Source: Callorhinchus milii (taxonomy: Eukaryota). Taken from it: 64,000 bases of DNA. The stretch covers positions 130,822,001-130,886,000 of the forward strand of contig NW_024704742.1 in assembly GCF_018977255.1 (NCBI RefSeq), given 5' to 3'. Made by a program: the position numbers and the translations under genes. This document shows, in pieces, positions 39,396-44,237 of the stretch; positions within the stretch are counted from its first letter, which is position 1; each line of letters opens with the position of its first letter. The notes beneath the pieces are model-generated. The model had not been told where the DNA came from. It ran no database searches and saw nothing but the letters and a program-made list of their open reading frames with translations.

Positions 39396-41717
39396 ATATC
39401 CTTTTACTGGTCTTGCTTATATGTATTAGTTTTTGTAAGTTTAAAATGTTATGTGCCAAAATCTTAACACCTAAGGCTTGTACTTTACAAATATAGTGTG
39501 GCCAAATTGAGCAATGTGGACAGTTAGCCTTGTTACATCTTGCAGCGCAGATTTCTAACTTGAGTCTTTTCAAGGTGTTGGAAGCAGGCAGTAAGGTTAT
39601 CTGTGCTGTCTCAATCCTACATGAACGCAAATGAGAGTGTATTAACGAACATTTTCTAACACTTTAGAAGAAGTTCAAACTTCAGTCACCCTTTTTATCT
39701 AATTGGTATATCCTAATCCTGCAGGTTTTCCAGTATTGCCATTCATGTTCATGTAGTTTGTGTAGATATTATGTCGAGGTTCTATTCTTCGTAATGTTAC
39801 ACTTGTTAATGATGCAAGTTGCTAGTGCTCAAAATGTAAATATTTGTTTCTAGTTCAAGTTATTGTAGGTTTCGTTTATTCGAAAGCTACAGCTTGTTAT
39901 TCATTGCATGGATTTTTTGTTTGAGTGGAGGAATTGTTCATCACCAACTATTACTATATAAATTACTGTTGGGTGTCAGCCTGCCTCACTTGGTAGCACT
40001 CTCATCTCCAGTTCAGGAGGTTATGGATTGAAGACCCACTTTGGGCATTTGAACTCTGTCGAGACTGACATTCCAGTACTGTCCTTCAGATGAGGTGTTA
40101 ATTAAGGTCCTGTCTTCCTGTTCAGGTGTATGTTAAAGATCCCATGGCATTATTTGAAAGGAGTTTCTCTCCTTTCAATTCCCCCAGATAAAACTGGTCA
40201 TTTATTTCATGGCTGTTTGTTGGATATTGGTGTGTGCAAATTGGCTGCCTATGAAATACAGTCCCTAAATATATGGAAATCCCTTGAAGCACTTTGAATC
40301 ATCTTTCCAATAATGAAAGGCTATATCGAATGCAACAATTATTATTTCTAGTTAAAAGAATTTATTGCAGCAACGATTGCATCTTTCTTGTGTGGGTGAT
40401 ACTTCGGTTGCTAGATCAAATATTGTGTTCTTGGCGTTGTATCTCAGGTGAATTCCGGAGAAGAGGCAGAGTCTAAGGATATGTGAAGTGTATTGATTGT
40501 AAGCTTGGTTCCTCCATTTAAAGAGCAGTTTTCTCTTGAGCAATTTACACTTATGCACAGTGAAACTTTCATTTAATAGACCATTTGGGAAATGTGCTTT
40601 CATTTTCCCCCCCATTTTATTGATCGTCTACTAAAATTTTCTCTTTTTTAAAAAAAACAGAAAGCACTTAAGACTGAAATTTGTTCATGTTTCTACATAT
40701 GCAGATGATTTCTGGGTTACCAACAGTAATTATTTTGCACAACTGAGAACTCCATCATGCATTAACTATCAGCCTCGCTGTCAATGACTCCTTGGGATTC
40801 AGTTGACTGTTATAAGCTTGATGGTTCTTGACAATAGCTGAATGGCAAGATGCAATTTCTCCCCTGTAATCAAATCTGCACACAGCGAACTTTTTAAAAT
40901 GGGCTTAATTTTATTTGTACTGGACATAAAAATATTGATTACGCATTTTTTTTCTTGATCACATTAAAAGTAGGTAAATTCTTTTCCCTCTAGTCATTTT
41001 AGATCGGAACGTCCTTACAGTTGTGCAGTAACTCGGGAATTCATTTTTCTTTTACAGTGCGTCTCAGTTGGTAGTATTCCGACTCGGGGAATAGGGAGGC
41101 AGTGGAATATATGTGAACTCTCGGGCCCTCTCCTCGTTCGGCTCCCCATCCTACAGCAAATTGAATTCAAGATCCATGTCCTCTTTCAAATGTCTCCATG
41201 GCCTTGTCCCACCTTAACTCTGTGTCCTCCTACGATTGTCCTGTCTCGGTCGCTCCCTCCACACAGCAAATATTGGCCTGGCTCCTGTCCCATGTTTGAT
41301 CCAACTCGCCATTGGTGAGTGGGTTTTCTTCCCTCACTTTCTGGAATTCCATCCCAGAATATTGCCCCCTGCTTCCCTGTTTTCAAAACTCACCTTGACC
41401 TATATTTTTGGCCATAGTTTTGGCCACTTTTCTCCCATCTGGCCCCTTTCCCAGCTTCCTCAACTCCTCCAACTCTGGCTCCTAGTGAGTTGTGTGAAAC
41501 ATTTAGAGATGTGCTTGTATATCCCTGCACAGATGTAAATTGTAATCCTTGTCTTTGGATCAGAAGATCCTGAGCACAAGCTTAAGTTTATACTACTAAT
41601 CATGTACTGGAGCATTAGCTTTAGTTATGGGGTTGAACGCAAGAACCTTGTTACAGTAGCTATCTTGTCACTGTTCAAAAAGGTATTTGTTCCTTGATCC
41701 TGCTAATGTTCCATATT

Positions 41718-42030
41718 GTGGAGTCCTGTAGCTCAGTGGTTAGAGCACTCGCCTTGCAAGCGAGACACCTGGGTTCAATTCCAGGCAGGGCAAAACCTTG
41801 GGCAAGTTTCCTTACTCCACACGCCTGATAATAATCCCTCCAAAATAAAACAATAATGAATTGGTCATTTTCAATCCACGACTGTTTGTGGGACGCTGCT
41901 GTGCGCAATTGGCTGCCGGTTTCGCCCACAACTATACAGTCAATTCACTTTACAGTCTATTCTGTGAAGTGCTTTGAGATGTCGAGAAGACGTGAAAAGC
42001 GCTATATCAAATGCAAGGATTATTATTATA
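41718..42030 (+). mobile_element. SINE copy (short variant)
   Basis: Full head-core-tail match to the family. Confidence 0.92.
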
Positions 42031-42782
42031 TTAATTGGTGGAACCTTGCAGCAGCAACAGCAGCAGCAAATATCTATTTCCCATCAATTGGTCACTGCAC
42101 TTGACAACAAATGTTGGTGACTGTCAAGCCTAGCTCAGTTGGAAATACTTTCGCCTCTGAGTCAGAAGGTTGTAGCTTCAAGTTTCACTTTGGGATTTGA
42201 ATTTGCATAGCCTAAGTTGATACTCCGATGTTAGTGCTGAGGGTGCACTTTATTGTTGGTGGTGCCATCCTTCAGATGAGACATTAAAACCTTCTGCCTG
42301 TTCAAGGCGGCATTAAAGATTCCATTGGCACTACTCAAAGAGACGAGAGTTTCTTTCAGTGTCCTGGCCAACAATCCCACAGATAAAATTGGTTGTTCAC
42401 TCCATGGCTGATTGTGAGCTATTACTGTGTGCAAATTGTATTTGTCTATAAAATACACAAGTCACAAATTAAAAATGCGGTGAGATGTTTCAGTGTGATA
42501 CGGTCCTATCATCAAATGTCAGGATTCTCATCGTCTGTGTTTGAATTCCATGTGGAGTTGGTATAGAACACAATAGTGTTGTCATCCTTTGGAATAATGC
42601 TGACCCTTGTTTTTAGTTTTCTGTATATAAAATGTGATTATGGAGATGGGAAGTCTTTGTGCATATTCTTTTAATTTGTCTCCAAAGAACATATAATGGT
42701 AATTTTAATTACTTTTTTGAGACTATTTAAATGGAAATTAATTGGAAAAGAAAAGAAGGCATATCTGAGACTTTCATGCAGA

Positions 42783-42801
42783 TGACCTGCAGAGGGCAGT
42801 A
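42783..42801 (+). promoter_or_regulatory. CTCF-like binding motif
   Basis: TGACCTGCAGAGGGCAGTA closely matches the CTCF core consensus; lies in non-repeat intronic DNA. Confidence 0.55.
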
Positions 42802-43809
42802 GTCACCAATCTTTGCAGCCTTGTATGGTAATAGGACTGCACTTTTTACCTGCCATATTCCTTAATATATTTTTCAATCACAACTTCAGGAAGAGTTTTC
42901 CACATTCTGGGGAATCATAAATTATGTAGTAGTAACTGATATTTTATGAACCATAGATTTTGGAGCTAAAACTAATGCCTTTCTTTGCTTGATGTGTTCT
43001 TTCCTGAACTGGAGAGAATTTCTGGTTGTGCCTTTTGTTCTTGTATCTGCAATGTTGGAGGAGGAACTATCCATAATGTTGGTAGGGTTAGTGTTTGCTT
43101 AGAGACAGTGCTTGCTGAGAGACTAGAAGATCATTTCACATCTGCAATAACCTTTGTTTGATTGAACTGTTTATTCTGACTGCACTTGAGAGACAAACAT
43201 GACTGTGTTGTGGGATGTCCTTGAAATAAGGTGTCAGTCCAACTGTGGAAAACCACATTTTTATATTCAGTTCACAGCTTTTCTAACATAATTTGCACCC
43301 CTATTGAATTGAGGACTGGTTTTGATTTAGCTCTCATAGTTTATTTTACTCTGGCTTTTTAGATCAAATTATTAACCTCCGTCAAATGCTTTTGAGTCTA
43401 GATTGACTTGAGAGACGTGCCCTGAGACATCCTTCTGACATAAAGGGCACTATATCAGTTGCAAAGGAGTAATATTATTTACTGTAAAATGTAGTGAATA
43501 TGTATTTTGTAGGCAGACTATAATTACTACTTGACAAAATGTAAAAGTAAAATACTACATAGATTCAGTTCCTGGCTCTCAATACTTTTTTATTTTAAAC
43601 TCCCCACTTCTTGTAAATCAATTTAATGTTATTTTATAAATCTCAATGTGAAATTTCTTTGCACCATTTATAATTTAAAGCTTGGGTAGTGCACTATGAT
43701 TTGTAAAAATCCATTTTCATTCAGGTTTAACTTCCAGTTATTGAAATGGCTTTCTTTTTTTTAAAAAAAGGGAAACTGCATTTTTTTTGAGTTTCAAAGG
43801 AAATTACAA

Positions 43810-44172
43810 GTGTCCTGTAGTGTATTGGTTAGAGCACTCGCCTCACAAGCGAGAGGACCCGGTATTGATTACTGGCCAGGGTGAAACCTTATGCAATTTT
43901 CCTTGCTCCACCCTCTGTTTACCTGGCTGTAAGTAGGAACCTGGTTTTAGTTGATTGGTGGATCGCTTTGGGGGGATTTAATCCCTCCAAAAAAAAAAAT
44001 TATTTGGTCACTCAATCCACGACTGTTTGTGGGATGCTGCTGTGCGCAATTGGCTGCCACGTTTTGCCCACAAAATATACAGTCAATTCACTTTACAGTA
44101 TATTCTGTGAAGTACTTTGAGACGTGTTGACAATGCGATAAGGTGCTATATCAAATACACAAGTTACTATTA
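43810..44172 (+). mobile_element. SINE copy (long variant) ending ~45 nt upstream of the U12 branch point
   Basis: Head, core and tail match the family. Confidence 0.85.
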
Positions 44173-44237
44173 CGTCCAGGTAAATCTTGAGTAGTTCAAC
44201 TTTTCCCTTTGTTAAATTTTCTTGACTCATTTTGCAC

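What the first reader, a model, noticed from the sequence alone, without database searches (positions are those of the whole stretch)
39396..44237. AT-AC minor-spliceosome intron in KIAA1328 (intron 5)
Seen: exon 5 has no in-register GT donor and ends at ATATCCTTTT. Exon 6 is preceded by TTTTCTTGAC, with the branch A 12 nt before a terminal AC. Only AT-AC splicing restores ERE-A-LQQQY. Known: RTATCCTTT and TCCTTRAC are the U11/U12 recognition consensus, and AT-AC introns are very rare. GT-AG-only gene finders would mis-model this junction. I cannot confirm whether the orthologous intron is already catalogued.
Basis: partly seen in the sequence, partly recalled or inferred. Interest (0 to 1): 0.72.

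Follow-up and report, generated by a model that had tools for sequence, protein, structure and literature searches.

The report
Known minor-type intron in chimaera KIAA1328
A cartilaginous fish gene carries a real intron of the rare kind removed by the cell's second splicing machine, but the same intron is already listed and tested in human and listed in mouse, so this is a conserved known feature.

Summary
39396-44237 (4,842 nt) is intron 5 of KIAA1328/hinderin, in a genome whose exons 1-6 match Callorhinchus milii RefSeq XP_007895324.2 at 192 of 192 residues. It starts ATATCCTTTT, has its branch A at 44225, 12 nt before the end, and ends CAC. One contig from a probable RNA run joins 39395 to 44238 with no letter between.

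It is not new. The human and mouse introns are in the Minor Intron Database tables. The human one is AT-AC at the same codon and is strongly retained on CENATAC depletion.

Two small extras. A 2024 orthology table scores both introns as having no intron orthologue in C. milii, probably an annotation miss. Read-through protein models suggest the donor is AT in a hemichordate and non-teleost fishes but GT in teleosts; this is inferred from protein only. The scan reported other U12 AT-AC introns on other DNA, none in this gene. Verdict: real, already known.

The parts
39396..44237 (+). KIAA1328 intron 5, U12-type, AT-AC subtype, phase 1, 4,842 nt
   Evidence: (table 8)
39396..39405 (+). U12-type 5' splice site ATATCCTTTT; identical to the human orthologue over the last 4 exon and first 10 intron bases
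   Evidence: human donor in PMC8280824 supplement file 1
44217..44226 (+). U12-type branch site TTTTCTTGAC, predicted branch A at 44225
   Evidence: branch use is inferred, not shown
44235..44237 (+). 3' splice site CAC
39280..39395 (+). KIAA1328 exon 5 (116 nt), PF15369 positions 20-57
44238..44356 (+). KIAA1328 exon 6 (119 nt), PF15369 positions 59-94, followed by a U2 donor GTAAGT at 44357
   Evidence: end read from the printed flank
19160..28353 (+). KIAA1328 intron 1, second U12-type intron (GT-AG subtype, 9,194 nt): donor GTATCCTTG, branch site TTTTCTTTAC with A at 28337, 16 nt before the end
   Evidence: human orthologue
19099..19159 (+). KIAA1328 exon 1, coding part
19187..19195 (+). 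Competing U2-type donor GTAAACTGA, 27 nt inside intron 1; RefSeq isoform X2 uses it and skips exon 2
   Evidence: inferred from the protein of XP_007895326.2
28354..28389 (+). KIAA1328 exon 2 (36 nt)
30848..30993 (+). KIAA1328 exon 3
32629..32726 (+). KIAA1328 exon 4
41715..42033 (+). Copy of a roughly 320-nt dispersed repeat (SINE-like) inside intron 5; an older copy lies at about 43812-44172
   Evidence: 87-92% identical to other copies in the window; very high depth

Best explanation
This is the conserved U12-type AT-AC intron 5 of KIAA1328 (hinderin), orthologous to the catalogued human intron chr18:36885673-36959307. SHOWN: the splice signals, the exact joint in one contig of a probable RNA run, and the same codon and phase as in human. 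INFERRED from established minor-spliceosome biology: U11 reads the ATATCCTT donor, U12 pairs with the branch site and bulges A44225, the AC 12 nt further on is chosen by distance without a polypyrimidine tract, and U4atac/U6atac.U5 with CENATAC carry out catalysis. Splicing is probably slow, so some transcripts keep the intron and meet a stop codon 33 codons in. The gene has a second minor intron (intron 1, GT-AG), so full-length hinderin needs the minor spliceosome twice.
For: Consensus donor, +5 C, branch-to-end distance 12 nt within the 11-13 nt optimum (PMC3584512 passages). Joint 39395 to 44238 in X3 record 9, sides 117 and 121 letters, 0 differences. Pfam register leaves one codon. Best of 52 open in-frame joins. 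RefSeq XP_007895324.2 is identical over 192 of 192 residues. Human orthologue listed as AT_AC with the same donor; retention rises from 0.31 to 0.87 after 48 h CENATAC depletion, padj 4.4e-9 (PMC8280824 supplement). Listed for human and mouse in PMC6717393 file 8 and for human in PMC6800510 Table S3. U11, U12, U4atac and U6atac genes are listed for C. milii in PMC11347168 Table S7.
Against: No test of minor-spliceosome dependence exists for this species. The runs are only guessed to be RNA and are assembled contigs, and the full joint is shown in 1 of 3 such runs laid; the other two show one matching edge each, and the joint table was cut by repeat rows. The branch site departs from TCCTTRAC at one position (T for the first C). 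The human intron was not significantly retained in CENATAC-mutant patient cells (delta PSI 0.06, padj 0.86) or ZRSR2-mutant samples (0.09, padj 0.95). PMC11347168 Table S8 records no orthologous intron for C. milii.
Confidence: 0.96

Rival explanations
1. The intron is removed by the major spliceosome as a U2-type AT-AC intron, like those of sodium channel genes.
For: Major AT-AC introns exist (85 counted in PMC8280824). A pyrimidine-rich stretch lies at 44200-44223.
Against: U2-type AT-AC introns have G at +5 (PMC2831892); this donor has C at +5 and +6. The human orthologue responds to CENATAC depletion, while none of the major AT-AC introns did.
Confidence: 0.01
2. The junction is really a GT-AG intron (39410 to 44245, 44248 or 44251) and the AT-AC motifs are incidental.
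For: These three joins keep the frame open. In teleost RefSeq isoforms a downstream donor is used at this intron.
Against: The donor GTCTTG is far from the U2 consensus. The joins replace the conserved A-L with D-I-L-L-L and score lower. The contig joint is at 39395/44238.
Confidence: 0.02
3. The AT or AC is an assembly error in a GT-AG U12 intron.
For: The window is a single assembly.
Against: The DNA-like run X8 covers 38900-40142 and 44098-44700 with no difference listed at either splice site. The human orthologue is AT-AC. 61 of 120 homologues read D-I-L and 0 read G-I-L.
Confidence: 0.01

Closest known systems
Human KIAA1328 AT-AC minor intron, chr18:36885673-36959307 (PMC6717393, PMC8280824, PMC6800510 supplements)
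   Same: Same gene, same codon and phase, AT-AC ends, identical donor GAAG|ATATCCTTTT, CAC acceptor, similar branch distance.
   Different: 4,842 nt here against 73,635 nt in human. Branch site TTTTCTTGAC here against TCCCTTAAT in human.
Mouse AW554918 minor intron, chr18:25203977-25289938 (PMC6717393 file 8)
   Same: Listed as the second minor intron of the mouse orthologue.
   Different: 85,962 nt; its terminal dinucleotides were not shown in the rows I saw.
Human KIAA1328 intron 1, GT-AG minor intron, chr18:36829197-36834319
   Same: Matches window intron 1: GTATCCTT donor after exon 1, branch site with a T in place of the purine, AG end.
   Different: 9,194 nt here against 5,123 nt. The human intron responds to ZRSR2 mutation and RNU4ATAC mutation, not to CENATAC depletion.
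AT-AC to GT-AG subtype switch in fish Syntaxin-6 (PMC2831892)
   Same: Precedent for the teleost switch inferred here for KIAA1328 intron 5.
   Different: A different gene. For KIAA1328 I have protein read-through evidence only.

Membership tests
U12-type (minor) intron, AT-AC subtype | 5' splice site matching RTATCCTT | tested here: met
   ATATCCTTTT at 39396-39405; definition in PMC3584512 passages; the consensus letters are from the finding and recall
U12-type (minor) intron, AT-AC subtype | U12-type branch site close to TCCTTRAC | tested here: met
   TTCTTGAC at 44219-44226, 7 of 8 positions; no PWM or intronIC score was run
U12-type (minor) intron, AT-AC subtype | Branch point 11-13 nt from the 3' end, no distinct polypyrimidine tract between them | tested here: met
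   12 nt from A44225 to C44237; optimum from PMC3584512
U12-type (minor) intron, AT-AC subtype | Actually excised at AT and AC | tested here: met
   X3 record 9 joins 39395 to 44238 and the joint cannot slide, as the flanking bases differ; RNA status of the run is a guess
U12-type (minor) intron, AT-AC subtype | Host genome encodes U11, U12, U4atac, U6atac | not testable with these tools
   No whole genome is held. PMC11347168 Table S7 lists all four for C. milii.
U12-type (minor) intron, AT-AC subtype | Splicing depends on the minor spliceosome | not testable with these tools
   Shown for the human orthologue only (CENATAC depletion)
U2-type AT-AC intron (sodium-channel kind) | G at +5 of the donor | tested here: not met
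   +5 is C; feature from PMC2831892
KIAA1328 / hinderin (PF15369) | Match to PF15369 above the curated cut-off | tested here: met
   57.9 and 52.7 bits against a cut-off of 27; 192 of 192 identical to XP_007895324.2

The most novel reading that the evidence does not exclude
KIAA1328 intron 5 is at least as old as deuterostomes, stayed AT-AC in cartilaginous fishes, bichir, sturgeon, bowfin and tetrapods, and switched to a GT-AG U12 intron once on the teleost stem, after which downstream U2 donors could use the same AG acceptor. The chimaera copy is missed in an Ensembl-based minor-intron orthology table, so that table undercounts conservation of AT-AC introns. This would be a dated natural subtype switch in a centriole gene, not found in my two main-text searches.
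Probability: 0.7. Interest if true: 0.25.

Novelty: already known. Interest (0 to 1): 0.13.

Why it matters
It adds little in principle: vertebrate minor introns are known to be highly conserved, and this one is already catalogued and tested in human cells. Its use is practical. It confirms that both KIAA1328 minor introns go back to the jawed-vertebrate ancestor. It flags two truncated UniProt entries for C. milii and many D-I-L database models as likely annotation errors. It also points to a probable AT-AC to GT-AG switch in teleosts that can be checked in minutes against fish genomes.

Tried and rejected
Main-text searches for KIAA1328 with 'minor intron' or 'U12' found 0 papers; the catalogue entries are in supplements. 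A search for the zebrafish gene number gave nothing relevant. The one supplement held for PMC10639083 has no KIAA1328 or Callorhinchus; the online databases (MIDB, IAOD, MIOD, U12DB) could not be seen. One supplement file each of PMC8280824 and PMC6800510 was not searched. No RNA holder is on record as RNA; the RNA labels are guesses. The joint table was swamped by repeat rows (1,228 not shown), so the joint is read from table 8. X1 has contigs in most of intron 5, one running 420 nt on from the donor, and none in the short flanks of introns 4 and 6; contigs cannot show level and DNA may be present, so this is not counted as evidence of retention. No whole genome is held, so minor snRNAs could not be searched. 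Other RTATCCTT matches on the + strand (11075, 24870, 59554) and - strand (36296, 40482, 3030) were not at any KIAA1328 exon end and are taken as chance. A Pfam scan of 49 of 77 upstream minus-strand frames found no family. No earlier scan note lies near this place. No folding or complex prediction was run, as it does not bear on the question.

Full report
OBSERVATION. Exon 5 ends at 39395 and is followed by ATATCCTTTT; the last intron bases are TTTTCTTGAC-TCATTTTGCAC, with the branch A at 44225 and AC at 44236-44237. The intron is 4,842 nt and phase 1. ATATCCTT alone is not rare enough to matter (3 on the + strand, 1.7 in 50 Markov resamplings). What matters is that donor and branch-plus-AC motifs, each about 5e-5 per base, sit exactly at the two ends that homology predicts.

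THE GENE. Both flanking exons match Pfam PF15369 (KIAA1328) above the cut-off, at profile positions 20-57 and 59-94, leaving one junction codon. The closest named proteins are from Callorhinchus milii. Six exons from 19099 to 44356 translate to 192 of 192 residues identical to RefSeq XP_007895324.2, so RefSeq already uses this junction. No later exon was found in the window. Of 52 open in-frame joins between 55 candidate donor and 33 candidate acceptor positions, the AT-AC join scored best against six homologues (285.5; best GT-AG join 262.0, from a poor donor at 39410). Hinderin is reported as an SMC3 binder (PMC547899, abstract) and as part of a centriolar CCDC61/KIAA1328/centlein complex (bioRxiv 10.64898/2026.07.08.732882, passages).

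RNA. I laid 4 of the 13 listed runs; three are guessed to be RNA, and all are assembled contigs. X3 record 9 carries 39279-39395 directly next to 44238-44358 with no other letter. X4 record 16 ends its piece at 39395 and X1 record 8 begins at 44238, from a second study. The joint cannot slide. X8, which behaves as DNA, reads through both sites unchanged, so the AT and AC are not assembly errors. The full joint is thus shown in 1 of 3 probable RNA runs, with matching edges in the other two.

WHAT IS KNOWN. Main-text searches found no paper naming KIAA1328 with minor introns, but supplements do. PMC6717393 lists two minor introns each for human KIAA1328 and mouse AW554918 (supplement rows). PMC8280824 lists human chr18:36885673-36959307 as AT_AC with the donor GAAG|ATATCCTTTT and a CAC acceptor, the same codon and phase as here. 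Its retention rises from 0.31 to 0.87 after 48 h CENATAC depletion (padj 4.4e-9), but not significantly in patient cells (padj 0.86) or ZRSR2-mutant samples (padj 0.95) (supplement rows; passages). PMC6800510 Table S3 lists both human introns. The defining features in PMC3584512 (passages) are met, and the +5 G of U2-type AT-AC introns (PMC2831892, passages) is absent. PMC7367187 was read in passages only and added nothing specific.

A SECOND MINOR INTRON. Intron 1 (19160-28353) begins GTATCCTTG and has TTTTCTTTAC 16 nt before its AG. It matches the catalogued human GT-AG minor intron 1. RefSeq isoform X2 instead uses a U2 donor 27 nt downstream and skips the 36-nt exon 2 (inferred from the protein).

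MECHANISM. Shown: signals, joint, orthology. Inferred from established minor-spliceosome biology: U11/U12 recognition, branching at A44225, 3' end choice by distance, and CENATAC-dependent catalysis. Retention would end translation 33 codons into the intron. No dependence test exists for this species; PMC11347168 Table S7 lists all four minor snRNAs for C. milii.

ANNOTATION. Of the 120 listed homologues (of 366 hits), 61 read D-I-L after the junction, the translation of G plus ATATCCTT; 55 read A-L; 4 read otherwise; none reads G-I-L. Two UniProt entries for C. milii read through the donor. In PMC11347168 Table S8, built on Ensembl 99, both KIAA1328 columns (539, 546) read 'protein_ortholog' for C. 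milii, which I take to mean no orthologous intron found. I counted the columns from the row's end on a hand copy; a shift of one would give the two columns inconsistent calls. So this species' copy may be missing from that table, though RefSeq-based catalogues that I could not see may hold it.

EVOLUTION, FROM PROTEINS ONLY. Among 137 further representatives, 113 aligned at the junction; 6 read D-I-L, 6 S-I-L and 2 N-I-L. S-I-L fits A plus a GT donor; N-I-L and D-I-L fit an AT donor. I looked up 10 of these 14. S-I-L: Scleropages, Stigmatopora, Gouania, Echeneis, Neolamprologus (teleosts, grouping recalled) and one unnamed. N-I-L: Acipenser, Amia. D-I-L: Polypterus and Glandiceps talaboti, a hemichordate. 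In Stigmatopora and Echeneis, RefSeq isoforms with and without the extension rejoin the same exon, which fits an AG acceptor. This suggests an AT-AC to GT-AG switch on the teleost stem and a deuterostome age for the intron. Caveats: no DNA was seen, read-through models are a biased sample, and the Glandiceps case rests on one short model. Such switches are a known class (36 clusters, one in fish Syntaxin-6; PMC2831892).

VERDICT. Real, correctly read, already known in human and mouse and modelled by RefSeq in this species. Interest 0.13.

Noticed in passing
window 19160-28353 (+): KIAA1328 intron 1 is a second U12-type intron (GT-AG), orthologous to the catalogued human intron 1.
   Followed up: yes
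window 19187 (+): Competing U2 donor 27 nt inside intron 1; RefSeq isoform X2 uses it and skips the 36-nt exon 2, keeping the frame.
   Followed up: partly
proteins P0173, P0231, P0164, P0218, P0202, P0184, P0139, P0192, P0212, P0203: Read-through S-I-L in teleosts against N-I-L or D-I-L in sturgeon, bowfin, bichir and a hemichordate suggests an AT-AC to GT-AG switch on the teleost stem.
   Followed up: partly
proteins P0001, P0121 (UniProt A0A4W3IT00, A0A4W3I9X2): C. milii entries truncated by reading through intron 5; P0001 also starts inside intron 1.
   Followed up: yes
window 39366-39815 (+): A contig of run X1 runs from exon 5 420 nt into intron 5; it may be retained intron or DNA.
   Followed up: partly
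window about 18129-18210 (-): A short frame starting with Met lies head-to-head with KIAA1328 across the GC-rich promoter region; possibly exon 1 of TPGS2 (human synteny recalled). No Pfam match.
   Followed up: no
window 16776-17933 (+): Degenerate reverse-transcriptase frame (PF00078, E 8e-14), a LINE-like fragment; related fragments and a 320-nt SINE-like repeat recur across the window.
   Followed up: partly
protein P0092 (Latimeria): Junction residue is G rather than A in the coelacanth model; not examined.
   Followed up: no
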